From a virus: a stretch of 45,034 nucleotides of DNA. The notes under the pieces are model-generated. The model saw nothing but the letters and a program-made list of their open reading frames with translations, had not been told where the DNA came from and ran no database searches. The stretch lies in the UHGV virus genome UHGV-0114729. One strand, 5' to 3'. Within the stretch, counting starts at the first letter, position 1. Each line of letters begins with the position of its first letter. Of the stretch, positions 21,132-28,819 are shown piece by piece. The translations under genes were made by a program, and so were the position numbers.

Positions 21132-21334
21132 ACGTAAAACCCTGCTGGCCCCCGGCGTCGTGATGTGGTGCCAACCTGAGATTCAAGGTCAGCAATATAT
21201 TTTTTGAGATCGCTGACTGAAGTGGCTGTAAATTCCACTCTTCGACCGTCTTTCTGTACCGTCGCCACGCGCTTTCCCATCATCAGGTCATGTAACGCAG
21301 CGCGCGCGGCATCCAGTTCAGTCTGTGTTGCCAT
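21128..21334 (-). CDS. W: Head-tail connector protein W
   Basis: 68 aa, lambda gpW-like ([20 protein letters not shown]). Confidence 0.95.
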
Positions 21335-23256
21335 TATTCATCTCCAGATAATGCCCGCGCGTAATCCGCCAGGGTCTTGTTATTGTTACGGCTGCCTTCT
21401 TCCTCCAGCAGGCTGGCCAGAAGTGAATCAAGATTTAGCTGCCAGCGGGATATGCTTATACGCAGCGCCGCCAGTGCATAAACAAAGCAATCGAGCGCCT
21501 CATTTCGTCGTTTTTTGCTGTCCCAGACGATTTTCTTACGCCCGTCCACCCATTTTTCAACCTGCTCCTCAGCAGTAAGCTGCTGCGCCTCAGCCAGATC
21601 ATAAATTTCGGGGTTATTGGGAAAATGCACGGCACCGGCAAGAGGTTCACTCCCTTCCGGCTGAAGTGTGAAGCGGTTATAAATCTGCTCCTTTGCGGTA
21701 TCAGTCCCCACTTCCGTCAGATAAACGCCGTTCTTGTTGCGTTTACGCGGCATATTCGCGACAGGCTTACCGTAAACGGAAGCCCCTTTAATCGGGATCA
21801 CGCGAAACAAACCATGCTTTTTTGAGCGATTGTAGACAATGGTGGGGTCAATACCGCCGATATCCCAGCAGATACGGGATACCGACATTTCCACGCCATT
21901 CTTTCGGAGATAGGTTTTGTTAATCGCCTCGTCCACCCTGACGAGGGTCGCTTCATCATCATGACGGCCCATAATGATCTGCCGGTCAATCAGCCAGCTT
22001 TCCTCACCGGGCCCCCATCCCCAGACGCGCATTTCATATCGATCCAGTTGGGAGTCGATCCCGGCTGTCAGATAAGCAACACGCTCCGGTACGGATGCCC
22101 CGAAGAACTCTTTGCGTTCGGCCATGAGCTCCGCGTCAGGCCGTTCACCAATTTTAGGCTCCCATGTTTCGCCCAGAGTGGTGTTCACGAAGGTTTTACG
22201 CTTTCCTGTATCCCCTTTCGTTTTTAGCCAGTCTTTAACGATCTGAACCCAGGTGGTAAACGGGCTGTATGCCGTCCAGATGTGAAACGTCACGCTGTCT
22301 GGCGGGTCGATTTCGGTGCCTGTTGATGAAAACCAGGATAAACCGTCGCGCGTCCAGATCCCGGTGGTGTCGCAGATGTAACGAGCTTCAGTGAAATCCA
22401 GCTCCTGCTGCTTAATGACGCAGGCATTATGTTCACACAGGTAAAAGACGCTGGAGGGTTCGCCCGGTGTCCATTTCAGCCCGAACGGGGTCTCTTTGTC
22501 GCCGAATTTAAGGTACTGCTCTTCACCACAGTGCGGACAGGCAACATGAAAACGCATGAAATGCCCGGACTCGCTGGCAGCACGCTCAATCTGGCAGGTC
22601 CCCTTTGTTTTTGGCGTTGAGCCGCGAATAGATTTGGGCCAGACAGACCCCTCAATACGTTTATCACCCAGGAACGTCGGGGATCCCTCTTTCTCAATAT
22701 CTTCATCGAATGCCGCCAGTTCATCGTAACCGGCGACATCGACCGATTTCTCACGATAGTTTTTCGCCGCTTTACCACCCAGACACCAGAACCCGCGACC
22801 GTTGGAGAAGCGTTTCATACTGAGCGTATTGTCCCGGTGCTTTTTTCCATACCAGGGGGCCAGCGCCAGAAGTGACGGAATATCGCGAATCGTCGGCTCA
22901 ACATGCGACTTCATAAAGTTTTCGGCGTCACCATCAGTAGGCAGCCAGATAAGGGAATTTCGCTGCTTGTGCTGAATAAAATACGCATAAACACCCAGCA
23001 ACATTTTTGAATAGCCAACACGGGCAGACTTAACAACGTTGACCTCACGTATGTAATCGTTACCCATCGCATTCATGATCGCGCGTTGAAACGGCAACGT
23101 TTCCCAGCGCCCTTCCTGGTAGGCCGACTCTTTGGGGAGATAGTAATTATCGTCTGCCCATTCAACCGCCGTTTGCGGCTCAGGTCGGTACAGCGAAAGT
23201 AGACCCGCGCGCGCAGAGTGCTGCAGCCCCTTAACCTGACTGTTCGATATATTCAC
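21334..23256 (-). CDS. A: Terminase large subunit A
   Basis: 640 aa, lambda gpA-like from MNISNSQV to the C-terminus. Confidence 0.95.
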
Positions 23257-23776
23257 TCAGCAACCCCGGTATTATTTCATCCAGCGCAGCTGCTTTGTTC
23301 ATGGCTTTAATGATGTCCTTCTTGAGGAAATCAATATGTCGGTTTTCCAGCTCCGGGAAGCGCCGCTGAACCGACAGAGGAACTCCATCAAGAATGCTGG
23401 CTACTTCTCCGGCCATCCGCGACAGCACGAACGTGCAGAATGCGGTTTCCACCACCTCAGCGGAATCTTTTGCATTTTTTAGTTCCTGGGCATCTGCCTG
23501 CGCTCGGGTGAGGCGGTGACGCTCATAGTCAATCGTACCAGGCTGAAGGTCGGATTCCGATGCAAGACGAAGGTCTTCCACCTCCTTCCGTAATTTCTCA
23601 TTCTCAATCGCCGCGTCGCGTGCGGAATACCATTCGATAGCCGCGGAAGATTCATAGAGGACCTCATTACCTTTTCCACCGCCACGTGCTACAGGCATTC
23701 CCTGATCCTGCCAGTTCTGAATGGTTCGCACGCTGACCCCAAATATTTCAGAAAGACGCTTTTTGTTGACCTCCAT
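23231..23776 (-). CDS. nu1: Terminase small subunit Nu1
   Basis: 181 aa, lambda Nu1-like (MEVNKK, IRTIQNWQ, C-terminal [10 protein letters not shown]). Confidence 0.95.
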   Translation of the reverse strand: MEVNKKRLSEIFGVSVRTIQNWQDQGMPVARGGGKGNEVLYESSAAIEWYSARDAAIENEKLRKEVEDLRLASESDLQPGTIDYERHRLTRAQADAQELKNAKDSAEVVETAFCTFVLSRMAGEVASILDGVPLSVQRRFPELENRHIDFLKKDIIKAMNKAAALDEIIPGLLSEYIEQSG

Positions 23777-23953
23777 AGCTCACTCCATACACAAAAACAG
23801 AGAAAGGAAACGCCCTCTGGCTATTTAGCCGTTTTTAAGGCTTATCATTTCCTTTCTTTTCAGGGGGTGTTTACAGTTAAAACAATGAATTAGCGAGAAG
23901 AAGAACGGAAACGGCAAATGCCTGAAAATTTTCATAAATAGCGAGAATCTGCG

Positions 23954-23965
23954 AGGTCGCCGCCC
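23954..23965 (-). other. cosN cohesive-end site (GGGCGGCGACCT on minus strand)
   Basis: Exact lambda 12-nt cohesive end; flanking sequence toward Nu1 resembles the lambda left end (cosB region). Confidence 0.85.
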
Positions 23966-24260
23966 CGTAAGAAGACGATAAGCTGGAAAGGACCCGAATA
24001 ATGCATACATCCGCATATATTATGGGCCCACACTCAAGCAAATAACTTGTATATGGTCGTAAAATCCTAATAGCATCTACCAAAGCAAACTATTGAAATT
24101 AACCTGTTCATCATGCTTTAAAATAAACCTATGTAATTAACATTTCCACTTAGTTCCAAACTGTTGTGTGTAGCAACTGACACATAGCCAAGAAATAAAT
24201 ATCGTCGCAACTTATATGTCACCCCACTAAACCTTATCAACAAACTTACACGTTAAACAC

Positions 24261-25148
24261 TTAATCCCTATCTAAAATCCCTTTCTTATAAGCCCTAGCA
24301 AGATAAAGTAGGTTACTTTCCTTATCATCACTATGTAAAATCTCAGCATGCTTATCACTTACTTTAATGAATCCCTTCGCAGCCTGCAGAAGCCCCAAAC
24401 CTGTCACCAACGGATTTTCCGTGTCGCTAACACTAATAATCGCTCCTAAAACAATATTAACCATATCGTCAGAACCTGGCATTTCAAAACTTAAATTGTA
24501 GCGATTTAAGAACCAACCTTTATTAATTTCACTAATTCTGTTTATATCTTCCAAGGAATTACGGAAGCGTTCATAAGCCTTTTTTTGAAAAAGCGGCTCA
24601 TCGGGAGCATAAGCAACATCTTGGTATAAGTCATCCAGATAATTATGGAACGCATCATAATCAACTTTATATTTATGCTTAAACTCAAGTATCTGCTCAG
24701 GATGGATATGTGGTCCGGGAACAGGAAGTGCATCAAAGAGTTCAAGTTTTAAGTTCGTATTTCTATCACTTGTCCCATTCCCCCCTATAAATTCCTCTCC
24801 TATCTGATGTAAATTCCAGTCACGCTGAGGCTCATCCTTCCTTAACTTACTAAGTATCTCAACCTGACGTTTTGGGAACTCTATCGGGTACTGATCGCTA
24901 TTGAATCCGATAGACACTACTGGTCTAGACAAAAAGTCCAAACCAATCAATATATCTTCTCGGGGTAATTGAAAATATATTTCTCTTGAGCCTGGAATTA
25001 CTAATCTATCCCAAAAAAGAGTGTAATAATTCAAATCTTCTTCATTCAACCCTCGCGCTGTCTGGAATCCACCAGTGGGCAAAACTTCCGTCATAACAGG
25101 TGAAGCAACAACACATCTTTCCACAATATTCCCCTTAGTAGTTTTCAC
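24261..25148 (-). CDS. Hypothetical protein, AT-rich cargo gene between Rz and cos
   Basis: 295-aa ORF; GC content visibly lower than flanking phage genes; AT-rich flanks; first codon is GTG and the true start is uncertain (GTG at 25124 has a better SD); contains RDWNLH. Confidence 0.55.
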   Translation of the reverse strand: MKTTKGNIVERCVVASPVMTEVLPTGGFQTARGLNEEDLNYYTLFWDRLVIPGSREIYFQLPREDILIGLDFLSRPVVSIGFNSDQYPIEFPKRQVEILSKLRKDEPQRDWNLHQIGEEFIGGNGTSDRNTNLKLELFDALPVPGPHIHPEQILEFKHKYKVDYDAFHNYLDDLYQDVAYAPDEPLFQKKAYERFRNSLEDINRISEINKGWFLNRYNLSFEMPGSDDMVNIVLGAIISVSDTENPLVTGLGLLQAAKGFIKVSDKHAEILHSDDKESNLLYLARAYKKGILDRD

Positions 25149-25398
25149 TCAAAAGCTTAGGAGAAAGTAACTATCACACCCACAAAAAAAAGTAAACGAA
25201 AAATACTGTATACTTGATTTGGATTATGAAACTCTATCAGTCACGCTTGTGGCAATAATAAAAATAATCGACAACATCGGAATACCTAATAAACAATCAT
25301 CTCAAAAATGAAATCTACTAGCATTTTTCAGAACGTCTTTTTCATAAACTAGTACATAGAACAGTTTGACTGACTTCATAAAATTTATTTTTCCCTAG

Positions 25399-25920
25399 TT
25401 AATGAGATGCTCGAACATTTTCTATCTCTCGAATCCCTGCAAAGCGCTTGTTGCCCTTTTCGATAAGTGACAGTAACGGTTTTATCCAAAGCACTGCCTG
25501 ACAATATGTCATTGGGCTGGTGGTAACGGCACGATCATCGGCTGAGTTAAGTTTGTCGGTATCGGTGTGCATGGCGCTGGCACGTAAACGGTACGCGTAT
25601 TCGAGCAGCCCACCAGCAATGTCAGCAGGAACAGGCAGATCACAGGTTTTTTCACGGCGGAGAATCTCCCGGTATTCGATAACTGTTTCTTCAGTACTGG
25701 TGTCGATCAGGGAGTTAAGCCTGATGGCATGTTCGGCAACCTGATTGAATCGATTGAAGTTGAATGCCTGGGTGGCGATCACCTGCCCCTGCATAGAATT
25801 GTCGCTTCGCAGAACGTCGTTATCGCTCTGAAGGCTACTGGCGTCGGAGCAACTCTTAACGAGAGCGACCGAAAGGACAGCAATAACAACAACGCCGATA
25901 AGACCCGGATTAATTTTCAT
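25399..25920 (-). CDS. Rz: Rz i-spanin
   Basis: Start MKINPG at 25920 overlaps the endolysin stop (ATGA); N-terminal transmembrane segment then coiled-coil periplasmic domain. Confidence 0.8.
   Translation of the reverse strand: MKINPGLIGVVVIAVLSVALVKSCSDASSLQSDNDVLRSDNSMQGQVIATQAFNFNRFNQVAEHAIRLNSLIDTSTEETVIEYREILRREKTCDLPVPADIAGGLLEYAYRLRASAMHTDTDKLNSADDRAVTTSPMTYCQAVLWIKPLLSLIEKGNKRFAGIREIENVRASH
25509..25655 (-). CDS. Rz1: Rz1 o-spanin lipoprotein, embedded in the +1 frame of Rz
   Basis: Hand-translated: GTG start after GGGAG, MKKPVICLFLLTLLVGC lipobox, proline-rich mature part, 48 aa; not on the ORF track because it is under 60 aa. Confidence 0.7.
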   Translation of the reverse strand: MKKPVICLFLLTLLVGCSNTRTVYVPAPCTPIPTNLTQPMIVPLPPAQ

Positions 25921-26465
25921 TGGTCTAACCCCCAGCACGCCAGTGCGCTTTCCTGGTCCCGTCGCTCAACCTGACCATAGCAGCCATTCTTCTGGCCTTT
26001 GGTTAGACGGCAATCACGGCCACCGTCTTTAATCCACCAGCGGATAGCTTCACAGGCTCCTTTCGTATCGCCAGCATTAATTCGCTTATAGAACGTAGAC
26101 GGGAAACATTTTCCGGGGCCGATGTTATATGGGCAGAAAGAAGCGATACCCGCTTTCTGTGGTTCGGTCAGTGGTACTTTGATATTTCGGTCAACCCACG
26201 CCAGCGCCTTGTCGCGTTCAATGGCGTTTACCTGGGCGCATTTCTCAGCTGACAGCTTCATGCCCTGTACTACTGGCTTGCCATCAACCATTGTTGCACC
26301 ACGGCAAATGGTCCAGAGTCCGCCGCCGTCGCGATATGCTGTCAAGCTGTTACCCTCTTTCTCATCCAGAAACTGATCGAGAATCACGGGTGCGGAAGCC
26401 CCGGCAAGAATCAAACCAACGACCGCTGCGCTCAATTTATTCTTCAGCTTTAGAGACATAGCCAT
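25917..26465 (-). CDS. R: SAR endolysin (T4-lysozyme-like, signal-anchor-release)
   Basis: 182 aa; N-terminal weakly hydrophobic SAR segment; E-x8-D-x5-T catalytic spacing (EGNSLTAYRDGGGLWT); resembles P21 R21. Confidence 0.85.
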   Translation of the reverse strand: MAMSLKLKNKLSAAVVGLILAGASAPVILDQFLDEKEGNSLTAYRDGGGLWTICRGATMVDGKPVVQGMKLSAEKCAQVNAIERDKALAWVDRNIKVPLTEPQKAGIASFCPYNIGPGKCFPSTFYKRINAGDTKGACEAIRWWIKDGGRDCRLTKGQKNGCYGQVERRDQESALACWGLDQ

Positions 26466-26715
26466 TGCGCCGATCCTCCCGTTCTTTCCAGCGGAAATAC
26501 CAGTTCACTGCACAGGTGATTACCGTGCATGCGATACCGACAATAATTGCCCAGTCGCTCAGGCTTAACCCTGCAATTCTGTCGGCCAACATCCAGGACA
26601 CCTCTTTTGCTGTTTTTGCTGTTTCGGCATATGCCTTCGCTGATACACCGCAGCCGGTCAGCGTGGTGCCTGTTCCATATGAAAGTCTGCTGTAAATGGT
26701 GCTCATTCTGGTCAT
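26437..26715 (-). CDS. S: Pinholin (S21-like class II holin) with dual start Met1/Met4
   Basis: 92 aa; MTRM dual-start; SAR-like first transmembrane segment; C-terminal WAIIVGIACTVITCAVNWYFRWKEREDRR resembles S21. Confidence 0.8.
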   Translation of the reverse strand: MTRMSTIYSRLSYGTGTTLTGCGVSAKAYAETAKTAKEVSWMLADRIAGLSLSDWAIIVGIACTVITCAVNWYFRWKEREDRRNGYVSKAEE

Positions 26716-26879: not shown

Positions 26880-27521
26880 TTAAAAGTTTAAAGGAACCAT
26901 AAAGCTACCAGGCTCTGCACCAGCTTCTTTATTTATTTCTTTACGGATTACCTCATTAATCTGAAAAGCCTCATTGTATACTTTTTCTAAGTTAATTGAC
27001 GCCTTCATATTATAGTATGTTTTTTCCTCACAAACATATAACCTTATCGGATATGGCCTAGGGTTGATTGCCTTCCAGTGGGAGATCACAAAATTATAAA
27101 CTGCAATACCATGACCTTTCATCTTCCCTGCTGTAACATCAATGTTTAGCTGATCTAAATACTCATCGAAGTGTTGCAAGGTGTTTCTCACCCTCACGGA
27201 ATTAATTTCCTTAATTTCAATATCTTTTATTTTTTCTTGAAGGTAATTACTTCGCTTAATATGCAATCTGAATTGTTCAGGGGATTCTTCCCTAGTCTGA
27301 TTTTTAGGAACTGCGATTAGTTTCTTGACGTTAGCCGCATCTGAAAGAATACTATTTATTAATATATGAATATTGTAATCAATTTTAAAGTAGTAACCAG
27401 CATCAGGAAGTGGTGTCTCATGAAAGAGCTCTTCACAGCGTGTTTTTATCGAATGAGTTAACAACCATAATTCGTGCAAATAAATAAAATTAAGTTTCAT
27501 TTGCTCAAAGGTTTTTGACAT
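26880..27521 (-). CDS. Hypothetical protein, AT-rich moron between Q and the lysis genes
   Basis: 213-aa ORF with strong SD (AAGGAGAG N6 ATG), own sigma70-like promoter (TTCACA-N18-TATAAA) and own terminator; contains RNTLQH at residues 112-117. Confidence 0.65.
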   Translation of the reverse strand: MSKTFEQMKLNFIYLHELWLLTHSIKTRCEELFHETPLPDAGYYFKIDYNIHILINSILSDAANVKKLIAVPKNQTREESPEQFRLHIKRSNYLQEKIKDIEIKEINSVRVRNTLQHFDEYLDQLNIDVTAGKMKGHGIAVYNFVISHWKAINPRPYPIRLYVCEEKTYYNMKASINLEKVYNEAFQINEVIRKEINKEAGAEPGSFMVPLNF

Positions 27522-27988: not shown

Positions 27989-28819
27989 TTACCGCGTTAT
28001 CTGCTTAAGCTGTTTTTCTGCCCATGCCTCTTCAATATCGAATTTCGTAATCAGCTGATCATAGAACGGTTTAACGGACTTCTTCCACGTATCCAGGCTG
28101 ATTACATCCGTAATCTGGCAAACAGCTGCGTGGGCCTCAGTTGACGGGATGCGCTCATATCCGCGACCGCCACAGCGCTTGCAGGTGCTGAATACTGGAA
28201 CGCCTTGCTGCTTCGTTTCCTTCTGATTCACCGCTTTCCCACGGCCACGGCAATCACTACATGCGCAACTGATGGCTTTTTTCCCTTTGCACTGAGGACA
28301 GAGAACGCGCGTTATCTCTTTTACCTCACGCCTGTTTTGGTGCTGCGAAGGTATCACCTTCAAACCAAACGCTTTTGATGCCTTAATGATTTCTTTTGCA
28401 TGTGCCGGCGTATTGGTTTTCATACTGAATACCTCAGCATCAATAAAGCCCTCACCGTTGCAGCAATCGCACCGTTTTACACTGGCTGCGCTGCGGGAAT
28501 AATCCTCAAATGCGAAGGTGGCCAACTGGTACATCACCTGAGGCTTAACCCCGAAATCCAACTTACGCAGCGCGGCAACCTTGTCACATTTGGTCATCGC
28601 GTACTCAGCCAGCAGTCCGATAGCCCGATCCCGGTCGTTATTGCTTATGCCCATCTTGCCGAGGAAGGCGCTGTAACCCATTGCGGCGCGTTCCTGGGTC
28701 ATGCCCATGGCCGCCATGACATCCGTCCCGGTCAGCGAATCTGAACCAGTGGCGCGCGGAGAGTCGCTAATAAGCGTCGACTTGGCGAAGTGATATTTCA
28801 CGGTGTTTTCGAGGTTCAT
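27989..28819 (-). CDS. Q: Late-gene antiterminator Q (large Cys-rich Q family)
   Basis: 276 aa; SDSPRATGSDSLTGTDVMAAMGM N-terminal motif and CxxC zinc-binding motifs as in enterobacterial prophage Q proteins; position upstream of the lysis genes. Confidence 0.8.
   Translation of the reverse strand: MNLENTVKYHFAKSTLISDSPRATGSDSLTGTDVMAAMGMTQERAAMGYSAFLGKMGISNNDRDRAIGLLAEYAMTKCDKVAALRKLDFGVKPQVMYQLATFAFEDYSRSAASVKRCDCCNGEGFIDAEVFSMKTNTPAHAKEIIKASKAFGLKVIPSQHQNRREVKEITRVLCPQCKGKKAISCACSDCRGRGKAVNQKETKQQGVPVFSTCKRCGGRGYERIPSTEAHAAVCQITDVISLDTWKKSVKPFYDQLITKFDIEEAWAEKQLKQITR

What the first reader, a model, noticed from the sequence alone, without database searches (positions are those of the whole stretch)
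24261..25398. AT-rich 295-aa gene inserted between Rz and cos: candidate accessory or defence cargo
The lysis cassette is normally followed closely by cos. Here a 1.4-kb visibly AT-rich block with one 295-aa ORF is inserted, in a region where lambdoid phages commonly carry host-benefit morons. The protein has no family I can recognise; it contains R109-D-W-N-L-H114, which fits the short HEPN-type R-[NDH]-x3-H pattern but could be chance. The start codon is ambiguous (GTG at 25148 without SD; GTG at 25124 after AAGGGG).
Basis: partly seen in the sequence, partly recalled or inferred. Interest (0 to 1): 0.6.

Follow-up and report, generated by a model that had tools for sequence, protein, structure and literature searches.

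The report
Orphan DUF6236 cargo gene in prophage
A phi80-like E. coli prophage carries, in the swappable slot between its lysis genes and its DNA-packaging site, one foreign AT-rich gene of the widespread but uncharacterised DUF6236 family; it is a reasonable candidate phage-defence gene, but nothing here shows what it does.

Summary
A 1.4-kb AT-rich block (GC 0.36 against 0.52) lies between Rz (stop at 25399) and cos (23954-23965) and holds one intact minus-strand ORF.

The start-codon ambiguity is resolved. All homologues begin M-[KE]-R-G/C, so the start is GTG 25124, after AAGGGG, giving 287 aa.

The proposed HEPN motif is rejected. R is not conserved, H is lost in distant members, and the motif sits on a beta strand of an N-terminal Rossmann-like domain.

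The "cargo" reading is well supported:
- The slot is hypervariable. In phi80 it holds the proven TaiEcA/AtiEcA defence pair.
- DUF6236 genes sit as lone, AT-rich genes right after the lysis cassette in at least five different prophage backbones.
- They also occur after tail-fibre genes, on small plasmids, and occasionally beside restriction-modification or Abi genes.
- No neighbouring gene is conserved.

Defence is plausible but unproven. The suggested mechanism, a nucleotide-type sensor domain plus a Gly/Ala-rich hairpin effector, is inference only. This is an ordinary kind of feature carrying an uncharacterised family that is worth testing.

The parts
24261..25124 (-). DUF6236-family gene, 287 aa, true start GTG 25124. 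The 295-aa reading from GTG 25148 is an upstream in-frame extension.
   Evidence: ORF. Pfam PF19749 E=7e-16, 58.7 bits against a cut-off of 26.2. phrog_23128 E=1e-25. N-termini of homologues align to the 25124 start. PGAP annotates the same gene as an 864-nt CDS named 'DUF6236 family protein' in E. coli W619.
25131..25136 (-). Shine-Dalgarno-like AAGGGG, 6 nt upstream of GTG 25124
   Evidence: Read directly from the sequence.
25125..25398 (-). AT-rich 274-bp spacer between the Rz stop and the gene start. No consensus sigma-70 promoter and no intrinsic terminator were detected on this strand.
   Evidence: Scan. RNA fold is no more stable than shuffles, z = +1.1.
24008..24260 (-). AT-rich 3' spacer of the cargo block, down to the point where phi80/mEp237-type cosQ homology resumes. 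No terminator detected.
   Evidence: Homology limits. Scan. Fold z = +1.4.
23954..23965 (-). cos cohesive-end sequence GGGCGGCGACCT. This is the right end of the virion chromosome, 295 bp beyond the gene's stop codon.
   Evidence: 100% match to bases 1-266 of phage phi80, whose first 12 bases are annotated as the sticky end. Sequence read.
25399..25938 (-). Rz-like spanin ORF, the last gene of the lysis cassette, with an embedded Rz1-like lipoprotein ORF at 25509..25655 (MKKPVICLFLLTLLVGC...). It forms the upstream boundary of the cargo slot.
   Evidence: ORFs. Position after holin and lysozyme, as in W619 and mEp237. The spanin assignment is by position and lipobox only; there is no Pfam hit.
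23231..23776 (-). Nu1 small terminase subunit, the first gene beyond cos. It forms the downstream boundary of the slot.
   Evidence: Pfam Phage_Nu1 E=1e-93.

Best explanation
**What it is.** The gene is a horizontally acquired, self-contained single-gene cargo module (a moron) of the DUF6236 family. It sits in the hypervariable slot between the lysis cassette and cos of a phi80-like prophage.

**Most likely role (inferred, not shown).** It acts in phage-phage or phage-host conflict as a stand-alone exclusion or abortive-infection protein that benefits the lysogen.

**Proposed working, in three steps.**
1. Predicted with high confidence: an N-terminal, roughly 110-residue Rossmann-like alpha/beta domain. 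It carries the family's invariant polar and aromatic residues: R3, Y37-W38-D39, R67, W103.
2. Inferred from fold class only: this domain binds a nucleotide-type ligand or a phage product.
3. Speculative: binding is relayed through the conserved ALPVP-x8-ILEFKxRRxDEL helical domain to a Gly/Ala/Ser-rich hydrophobic hairpin (residues about 220-260). That hairpin acts on the inner membrane or on another target to stop the infection.

**Expression (inferred).** The gene is always co-oriented with the late operon, and in this window no terminator is detectable on either side. It is therefore at least transcribed by Q-antiterminated read-through late in the prophage's own lytic cycle. Whether it is also expressed in the lysogen is unknown.

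**Confidence split.** The cargo/moron part is about 0.9 likely. Defence as the role is about 0.35. The specific sensor-plus-hairpin mechanism is about 0.15.
For: **Cargo**
- GC is 0.38 against 0.52 here, and 10-17 points below the flanks in every enterobacterial locus examined.
- The slot holds rha plus four other ORFs in phi80, including orf63 (TaiEcA) and orf64 (AtiEcA) (PMC11364771). It holds four unrelated small ORFs in mEp237, which shares the Q-to-Rz module.
- Only 5 of 5426 complete E. coli genomes carry the gene.
- The gene is intact and identical in W619. It differs by one synonymous change in 65COLEC, where the terminase and tail genes are truncated but this gene is kept.

**Recurrent hot-spot position**
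- It lies directly after the lysis cassette and before the terminase in lambda-type (Nu1/A), Gifsy-type (DUF1441/GpA), two HK97-like (HNH/Terminase_4) and Terminase_2 backbones.
- It lies after tail-fibre genes in Klebsiella, in a high-GC prophage and in Vibrio prophages.
- It occurs on small Acinetobacter plasmids and on a conjugative Vibrio plasmid.

**Stand-alone gene**
- In 40 loci from many phyla, no neighbouring family recurs beyond near-identical strains.
- The 144 neighbours match 141 different Pfam families.
- Most intergenic gaps exceed 90 bp.

**Defence flavour**
- The same slot in phi80 encodes an experimentally proven defence gene.
- Some members lie next to a type IIG restriction-modification (RM) gene of MmeI type (31-bp gap) or an Abi_2/RiboL-PSP-type HEPN gene (20-bp gap).
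- Others lie near SIR2-HerA, AbiEii, DpdH or Abi_alpha genes.
- Kosakonia and Salmonella homologues have a terminator-like hairpin right after the stop codon. In Kosakonia there is also an extended -10 promoter-like site right before the start, which is the classic moron layout.

**Structure**
- In the AF2 model, residues 1-110 have pLDDT of 90 or more and form an alpha/beta domain.
- The most hydrophobic segment maps to residues 220-260 in 117 of 145 members.
- One member's hairpin weakly matches the 2TM part of SLATT_6 (E=0.005).
Against: - The window protein has no hit to any of 5027 PADLOC models, and the 46 family members give only isolated weak single-member hits, best E=0.005. It has no NCBIfam hit, and no searched paper mentions the family.
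- Defence neighbours are a minority. Roughly 5-6 of about 36 non-prophage loci have one within three genes, which is not clearly above background. Most neighbours are housekeeping genes.
- No family member has a segment predicted to insert as a canonical TM helix (0 of 145 with summed Hessa dG below 0). The window protein's best segment scores +9.6.
- The hairpin region is the low-confidence part of the model, with pLDDT below 50.
- The SLATT hit is 1 of 46 members and lies below Pfam's cut-off.
- No promoter or terminator flanks the gene in this window. Expression in the lysogen, which defence requires, is therefore unsupported.
- The gene is co-oriented with the late operon in every prophage context. 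The proven TaiEcA defence gene in phi80 is antisense to it.
Confidence: 0.35

Rival explanations
1. A late-expressed phage accessory function. The protein is made from the Q-dependent late transcript and helps the phage's own lytic cycle, for example by tuning lysis timing or envelope disruption, protecting or processing DNA around packaging, or excluding competitors during lytic growth. On this reading it does not serve the lysogen.
For: - The gene is always on the same strand as the late operon.
- It lies directly downstream of the spanin genes in six different lysis cassettes, with gaps as short as 77-85 bp in L006 and L009.
- In L023 it sits immediately upstream of the lysis genes.
- No terminator separates it from Rz in this window.
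- The gene and the lysis module are inherited together. They are identical over about 24000-26000 between the window and W619, while the packaging side is about 80% identical.
Against: - The lysis cassettes it follows use different holin and endolysin families, and most phages with those cassettes lack the gene.
- mEp237 has the same lysis module without it.
- Only 2 of 50,697 phage records contain a homologue.
- Outside enterobacteria the gene is chromosomal among housekeeping genes, or on plasmids, with no phage genes nearby.
- It is retained intact in a degraded prophage that can no longer lyse or package.
Confidence: 0.15
2. A lysogenic-conversion or host-physiology gene unrelated to phage defence. 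The protein would be a cytoplasmic nucleotide-binding enzyme or regulator that changes the host's metabolism, stress tolerance or surface, carried by mobile elements because it is useful to the host.
For: - The N-terminal domain resembles nucleotide-binding Rossmann-like domains of glycosyltransferases, NMN adenylyltransferases, PP-loop ATPases and universal stress proteins as much as it resembles CARF domains.
- Most neighbours outside prophages are metabolic or housekeeping genes.
- On plasmids it sits among transporter and resistance cargo such as SulP, chrA and tet(39).
Against: - None of the nucleotide-binding signature motifs of those enzyme families is among the conserved residues.
- No Pfam enzyme family is matched.
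- There is no conserved metabolic partner or operon.
- A patchy, horizontally spread distribution across many phyla and a hot-spot location in prophages are more typical of conflict genes.
Confidence: 0.2
3. A counter-defence or self-immunity factor, like AtiEcA of phi80. It would be expressed late from the Q-dependent transcript to neutralise a host or prophage defence that would otherwise block the phage's own development.
For: It occupies the same slot and the same (late-operon) strand as atiEcA in phi80, which is expressed with the late genes (PMC11364771).
Against: - AtiEcA works next to its cognate defence gene. Here and in all other loci DUF6236 has no conserved partner.
- It occurs on plasmids and chromosomes far from any phage.
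- At 287 aa with multi-domain organisation it is unlike the small Ati protein (76 aa).
- There is no similarity to phi80 orf63, and the window holds no TaiEcA homologue near the slot.
Confidence: 0.08
4. One reading: a HEPN-type RNase toxin that uses R109-x4-H114 as its active site.
For: - The motif R-D-W-N-L-H is present.
- One of 46 family members gives a weak hit to HEPN_AbiA_CTD (E=0.009).
Against: - R is F, Y or I in homologues of 51-70% identity.
- H is absent in many distant members. Only W103 of the motif is conserved, at 98%.
- The motif lies on beta strand 102-107 of an alpha/beta domain, not in an all-helical HEPN fold.
- The window protein has no HEPN hit in Pfam or PADLOC.
- The pattern is expected by chance in about 4% of proteins of this size (my estimate).
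Confidence: 0.02

Closest known systems
Pfam PF19749 (DUF6236) / PHROG 23128
   Same: Full-length match above Pfam's gathering score. The window protein has the same roughly 285-aa single-domain architecture and the same conserved motifs (RG at the N-terminus, LYWD, RP, W103, ALPVP, ILEFKxRRxDEL, YLDELY, PD) as 883 representative clusters.
   Different: Nothing differs: it is a member. The family itself has no assigned function, no solved structure and no mention in the searched literature.
phi80 orf62-orf66 moron locus: TaiEcA defence and AtiEcA counter-defence (PMC11364771)
   Same: It occupies exactly the same genomic slot, between Rz/Rz1 and cos and upstream of the packaging module, in a close relative of this prophage. 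That slot is an experimentally validated cargo and defence hot spot.
   Different: There is no sequence similarity to TaiEcA. TaiEcA is antisense to the late operon and is paired with an inhibitor. DUF6236 is co-oriented with the late operon and has no partner.
Classic lambdoid morons (lambda bor/lom, HK97 morons)
   Same: A single extra gene lies between genes that are adjacent or differently filled in related phages. Its base composition is deviant, and relatives have promoter-like and terminator-like flanks.
   Different: In this window no promoter or terminator could be detected. The product is a cytoplasmic-looking 287-aa protein, not a small envelope lipoprotein or outer-membrane protein.
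Sensor-plus-membrane-effector proteins of nucleotide-signalling defence (Cam1 CARF-TM; SLATT/2TM effectors of CBASS and related systems)
Single-gene abortive-infection proteins carried by prophages and plasmids (the Abi class, BstA)
   Same: A lone gene on prophages and small plasmids, with a patchy distribution across phyla and occasional neighbours that are RM or Abi genes.
   Different: There is no homology to any Abi model in Pfam or PADLOC, and no phenotype is known.

Membership tests
Pfam DUF6236 (PF19749) | Sequence scores above the family's curated gathering threshold over most of the model | tested here: met
   58.7 bits against a cut-off of 26.2, E=7e-16, covering model positions 58-320 of 324. 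All 46 aligned relatives also hit it.
Pfam DUF6236 (PF19749) | Family-wide conserved residues are present in the window protein | tested here: met
   R3, L36, W38, D39, P44, R67, W103, L129, L133, P134, P136, L146, F148, K149, Y167, D175 and Y274 are all present. Only G4 (C here), Y37 (F here), R152 (Y here) and E155 (D here) deviate.
HEPN RNase superfamily | Conserved R-x4-6-H catalytic motif | tested here: not met
   The motif is present in the window protein, but R is F/Y/I in close homologues and H is lost in distant ones. Neither reaches 70% conservation in 145 sequences.
HEPN RNase superfamily | All-alpha-helical fold with the motif at a helix N-terminus, and a match to a HEPN profile | tested here: not met
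Moron (extra gene unit in a lambdoid genome) | Present between genes that are adjacent or differently filled in related phages | tested here: met
   The Rz-cos slot holds different genes in phi80, in mEp237 and in this window. Only 5 of 5426 E. coli genomes carry this cargo.
Moron (extra gene unit in a lambdoid genome) | Nucleotide composition differs from the surrounding phage genes | tested here: met
   GC is 0.384 against 0.517. The same offset is seen in 10 other loci.
Moron (extra gene unit in a lambdoid genome) | Own promoter upstream and terminator downstream, allowing expression from the repressed prophage | tested here: inconclusive
   None was detected in the window. A terminator-like hairpin follows the homologue in Kosakonia and Salmonella, and a promoter-like site precedes it in Kosakonia. 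Consensus scans cannot establish function.
Known anti-phage defence systems (PADLOC-DB v2.0.0) | Match to a model of a known or candidate defence protein | tested here: not met
   The window protein gives 0 hits. Among 46 relatives there are only four single-member hits, with E of 0.005 or weaker.
Tai (tail assembly interference) systems | Homology to TaiA proteins and an adjacent Ati inhibitor | tested here: not met
   BLASTP against phi80 orf63 gives E=2.1. There is no adjacent small partner gene in the window.
CARF-domain sensors | CARF-type Rossmann-like fold | tested here: inconclusive
CARF-domain sensors | Genomic association with a cyclic-oligonucleotide source (type III CRISPR or cyclase) | tested here: not met
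   No conserved neighbour in 40 loci. No cyclase or Cas family appears among the 25 families listed for the 144 neighbours.
SLATT / 2TM membrane effectors | Two transmembrane helices and a match to a SLATT profile | tested here: not met
   0 of 145 members have a 19-residue window with summed Hessa dG below 0. Only 1 of 46 members hits SLATT_6, at 16.9 bits against a cut-off of 27.1. A conditional, oligomeric insertion of the Gly/Ala-rich hairpin cannot be excluded with these tools.

The most novel reading that the evidence does not exclude
DUF6236 is an undescribed, widespread family of single-gene anti-phage (abortive-infection or exclusion) proteins. It has at least 883 clusters at 50% identity across many bacterial phyla. 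It rides in prophage moron slots, on small plasmids and beside RM or Abi genes. It would work by a new coupling of a Rossmann-like sensor domain to a glycine-zipper-like hairpin effector, without any partner gene.
Probability: 0.25. Interest if true: 0.65.

Novelty: new member of a known kind. Interest (0 to 1): 0.4.

Why it matters
If DUF6236 proves to be a defence gene, it would add a broadly distributed single-protein system to the defence catalogue. The family is absent from PADLOC 2.0, from the searched literature and from the PDB. A positive result would also show that the lysis-to-packaging junction of lambdoid prophages is a general defence hot spot beyond Tai, useful for guilt-by-location discovery in the way the P2/P4 hot spots have been. 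If it is not a defence gene, the finding is simply one more uncharacterised moron. Either way the gene is small, self-contained and easy to test.

Tried and rejected
- **HEPN reading:** rejected on motif non-conservation and on fold.
- **Homology to known families:**
  - NCBIfam gave nothing and PADLOC gave nothing for the window protein.
  - A profile search of PDB sequences gave only E of 0.25 or worse.
  - Foldseek against BFVD gave no hit at E of 0.001 or better.
  - The afdb50 library was unavailable.
- **Literature:** searches for DUF6236, PF19749 and phrog_23128 returned 0 papers.
- **TaiEcA homology:** none, either for this gene or for the second AT-rich ORF.
- **Conserved operon partner:**
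  - All-against-all BLAST of neighbours in 40 loci found none.
  - Tightly coupled neighbours (gap under 60 bp) are heterogeneous: a HEPN gene, a type IIG RM gene of MmeI type, HIT, DUF815 and DUF748.
- **Canonical TM helices:** none by hydropathy or Hessa dG.
- **Promoter, terminator or RNA structure around the gene in the window:** nothing above shuffles.
- **dN/dS among E. coli copies:** uninformative, because the copies are identical or differ by one synonymous site.
- **The search for related loci with the broad alignments A3 and A2:** failed for lack of a conserved stretch. A narrower alignment, A4, worked.
Full report
**1. What is in the sequence**

The window is almost a whole phi80-like lambdoid prophage, with the late genes on the minus strand. 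Around the finding the gene order on that strand is as follows:

| Feature | Coordinates |
|---|---|
| Q antiterminator | 27989..28819 |
| AT-rich 213-aa ORF | 26880..27521 |
| Holin | 26437..26715 |
| Lysozyme | 25917..26465 |
| Rz-like ORF (embedded Rz1-like lipoprotein ORF 25509..25655) | 25399..25938 |
| The ORF in question | 24261..25148 |
| cos | 23954..23965 |
| Nu1 (Pfam E=1e-93) | 23231..23776 |
| Large terminase | 21334..23256 |

- The cohesive end GGGCGGCGACCT reads 23965->23954. The DNA from there leftwards is 100% identical to the first 266 bases of phage phi80.
- Homology to phi80-type prophages extends across cosQ to about 24007.
- The foreign block is therefore about 24008-25398. 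Its GC is 0.36 against 0.52 for the window.

**2. Start codon**

- Every homologue, from 70% down to about 20% identity, begins M-[KE]-R-G/C-V-V, aligned with the 25124 start.
- PGAP calls an 864-nt CDS in E. coli W619, the length expected from the 25124 start.
- The product is 287 aa. The 295-aa reading is an upstream extension.

**3. Family**

- The protein belongs to Pfam DUF6236 (E=7e-16, 58.7 bits against a cut-off of 26.2) and to PHROG 23128 (E=1e-25). Both are of unknown function.
- It has no NCBIfam or PADLOC match.
- No searched paper contains DUF6236, PF19749 or phrog_23128.
- An exhaustive profile search finds 883 representative clusters (50% identity) at E of 0.001 or better, and 65 at E of 1e-30 or better. 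Most of the 150 listed are 270-310 aa, and none of the 46 scanned against Pfam carries a second confident domain.
- Members occur in Gammaproteobacteria, Alphaproteobacteria, Burkholderiales (Massilia, Comamonas, Undibacterium), Campylobacterota, Desulfobacterota, Bacteroidota, Nitrospirota, Acidobacteriota, Verrucomicrobiota, Firmicutes and Cyanobacteria. This is a patchy distribution of the horizontal-transfer type.

**4. The HEPN idea**

- R-D-W-N-L-H is present. In the closest homologues the R is F, Y or I, and in distant ones the H is lost. Only the W is conserved, at 98%.
- In the structure model the motif forms beta strand 102-107 of an alpha/beta domain.
- The HEPN reading is rejected.

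**5. Structure**

- With a 46-sequence alignment, AlphaFold2 gives mean pLDDT 74.7.
- Residues 1-110 have pLDDT of 90 or more and form a Rossmann-like alpha/beta domain.
- Residues 140-200 form a helical domain that carries the ALPVP and ILEFKxRRxDEL/YLDELY motifs.
- Residues 220-264 are of low confidence.
- Foldseek against viral models and a profile search of PDB sequences find nothing.
- The fold class is informative: it is nucleotide-binding-like. No family assignment is justified.
- The low-confidence segment is the most hydrophobic part of the protein in 117 of 145 members and is rich in Gly, Ala and Ser.
- That segment of one member weakly matches the 2TM region of SLATT_6 (E=0.005, below cut-off).
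- No member has a segment that qualifies as a canonical TM helix (0 of 145 with summed Hessa dG below 0).
- The protein is therefore probably soluble. A conditional membrane action of the hairpin is speculation.

**6. Genomic context**

*The slot.*
- In phi80 it holds rha, orf63, orf64, orf65 and orf66.
- orf63 is TaiEcA, an experimentally proven anti-phage gene expressed in the lysogen. orf64 is its late-expressed inhibitor AtiEcA. The authors state that Tai genes lie predominantly 'upstream of the packaging module' (PMC11364771).
- mEp237 shares the Q-to-Rz module of this window, including the 213-aa ORF at 99.5% identity, but has four unrelated small ORFs in the slot.
- Only 5 of 5426 complete E. 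coli genomes carry the DUF6236 cargo.

*The family in prophages.* Homologues of 30-57% identity lie as lone genes, on the late-operon strand, right after the lysis cassette and before the terminase. The backbones have different packaging and head modules:
- Kosakonia and Salmonella HK97-like.
- Citrobacter Gifsy-like.
- An E. coli Terminase_2 phage.
- One more contig.

Other members follow tail-fibre genes in Klebsiella, in a high-GC prophage and in Vibrio prophages.

*The family on plasmids.*
- On two Acinetobacter plasmids it lies 20 bp downstream of an Abi_2/RiboL-PSP-like HEPN gene.
- On another Acinetobacter plasmid it lies next to tet(39) cargo.
- On a conjugative Vibrio plasmid it lies near a RelBE pair.

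*The family on chromosomes.*
- In 40 loci from GTDB genomes no neighbouring family recurs, apart from near-identical strains.
- The 144 neighbours match 141 Pfam families, mostly housekeeping.
- Gaps on both sides usually exceed 90 bp.
- A few loci have defence neighbours: a type IIG restriction-modification (RM) gene of MmeI type 31 bp upstream, SIR2-HerA, AbiEii, DpdH, mad2 and Abi_alpha.

*Composition.* The gene is 10-17 GC points below its flanks in all enterobacterial loci.

**7. Population detail**

- The gene is identical in the window and in E. coli W619. The whole 24000-26000 stretch is identical, whereas DNA to the left of cos is only about 80% identical. The mosaic junction therefore lies at cos, and the cargo travels with the lysis module.
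- In strain 65COLEC the prophage has lost most of its terminase and structural genes, yet it keeps the gene intact with a single synonymous change. This is weak support for a benefit to the host rather than to the phage.

**8. Expression signals**

- In the window there is no consensus promoter or intrinsic terminator on the gene's strand, upstream or downstream. The spacers fold no better than shuffles.
- Kosakonia and Salmonella homologues do have a terminator-like hairpin just after the stop codon. Kosakonia also has an extended -10 promoter-like site just before the start.
- What can be said is that the gene will be transcribed by Q-antiterminated read-through during lytic growth. Expression in the lysogen is open.

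**9. Interpretation**

- Well supported: the gene is a self-contained, horizontally acquired cargo gene (a moron) of an uncharacterised family, sitting in a validated cargo and defence hot spot.
- Best guess at function, about 0.35: a stand-alone conflict or defence protein.
- The mechanism of a Rossmann-like sensor plus a hairpin effector is inference from fold class and composition only, about 0.15.
- Rivals are a late phage accessory function (0.15), a non-defence host-physiology gene (0.2), a counter-defence factor (0.08) and a HEPN RNase (0.02).

**10. Novelty and score**

- The kind of feature is ordinary: a moron in the lysis-to-cos slot, and a member of a catalogued DUF. It is already annotated in RefSeq as 'DUF6236 family protein'.
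- What is open is the function of a large, widely spread family with a suggestive location pattern.
- Interest is 0.4. If the defence reading is true (about 0.25), it would merit about 0.65.

Noticed in passing
window 26880..27521 (-): A second lone AT-rich ORF (213 aa, GC 0.336) lies between Q and the holin, in the slot downstream of pR' where Stx phages carry stx (position noted from my own knowledge). It has no Pfam, NCBIfam or PHROG family and only a weak PADLOC CasR hit (E=0.004). It contains V-R-N-T-L-Q-H, a textbook R-N-x3-H HEPN-type motif. That stretch aligns, not significantly, with the RN..AH motif regions of phi80 TaiEcA and of an Acinetobacter Abi_2-like HEPN protein. It is 99.5% identical to mEp237 gp056 (hypothetical) and is present in 7 of 5426 E. 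coli genomes. It may be a better HEPN or defence candidate than the ORF in the finding.
   Followed up: partly
L073 6883..8831 (Acinetobacter lwoffii plasmid pALWED1.3; the same arrangement in A. indicus NZ_CP094256.1): A DUF6236 gene lies 20 bp downstream of a 345-aa HEPN-domain gene on the same strand. The HEPN gene matches RiboL-PSP-HEPN at E=2e-6 and Abi_2 at E=7e-5. This is a possible two-gene operon, and it is the only tight pairing with a toxin-like gene seen in the family.
   Followed up: partly
window about 23950-24000, compared with L001 and L072: There is a sharp mosaic junction at cos. The window and E. coli W619 are identical from about 24000 to 26000 (cargo, Rz and part of the lysozyme). 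They are only about 80% identical over Nu1 and the terminase, to the left of cos.
   Followed up: yes
L072 (E. coli 65COLEC, NZ_CP070914.1 2664007-2671807): This is a degraded relative of the prophage. The large terminase and a tail gene are annotated as partial pseudogenes and the head genes are gone. The Q-lysis-DUF6236-Nu1 segment is intact, and the DUF6236 gene differs from the window by one synonymous site.
   Followed up: partly
L052 8001..8870 (Halomonas litopenaei): The DUF6236 homologue appears to be split into two ORFs. The 101-aa downstream ORF matches the C-terminal part of the DUF6236 model (positions 235-322). It is probably a frameshifted pseudogene.
   Followed up: no
window 25509..25655 (-), inside 25399..25938: An embedded +1-frame ORF encodes a lipoprotein-like peptide (MKKPVICLFLLTLLVGC...). 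This is the Rz1-in-Rz arrangement, although neither ORF hits a Pfam spanin family.
   Followed up: no
L025 7001..11587 (metagenomic chromosome, ERZ26273096): Here a DUF6236 gene sits in an island between a VgrG/T6SS effector cluster and an Abi_alpha gene, with an H-NS-like gene at the edge.
   Followed up: no
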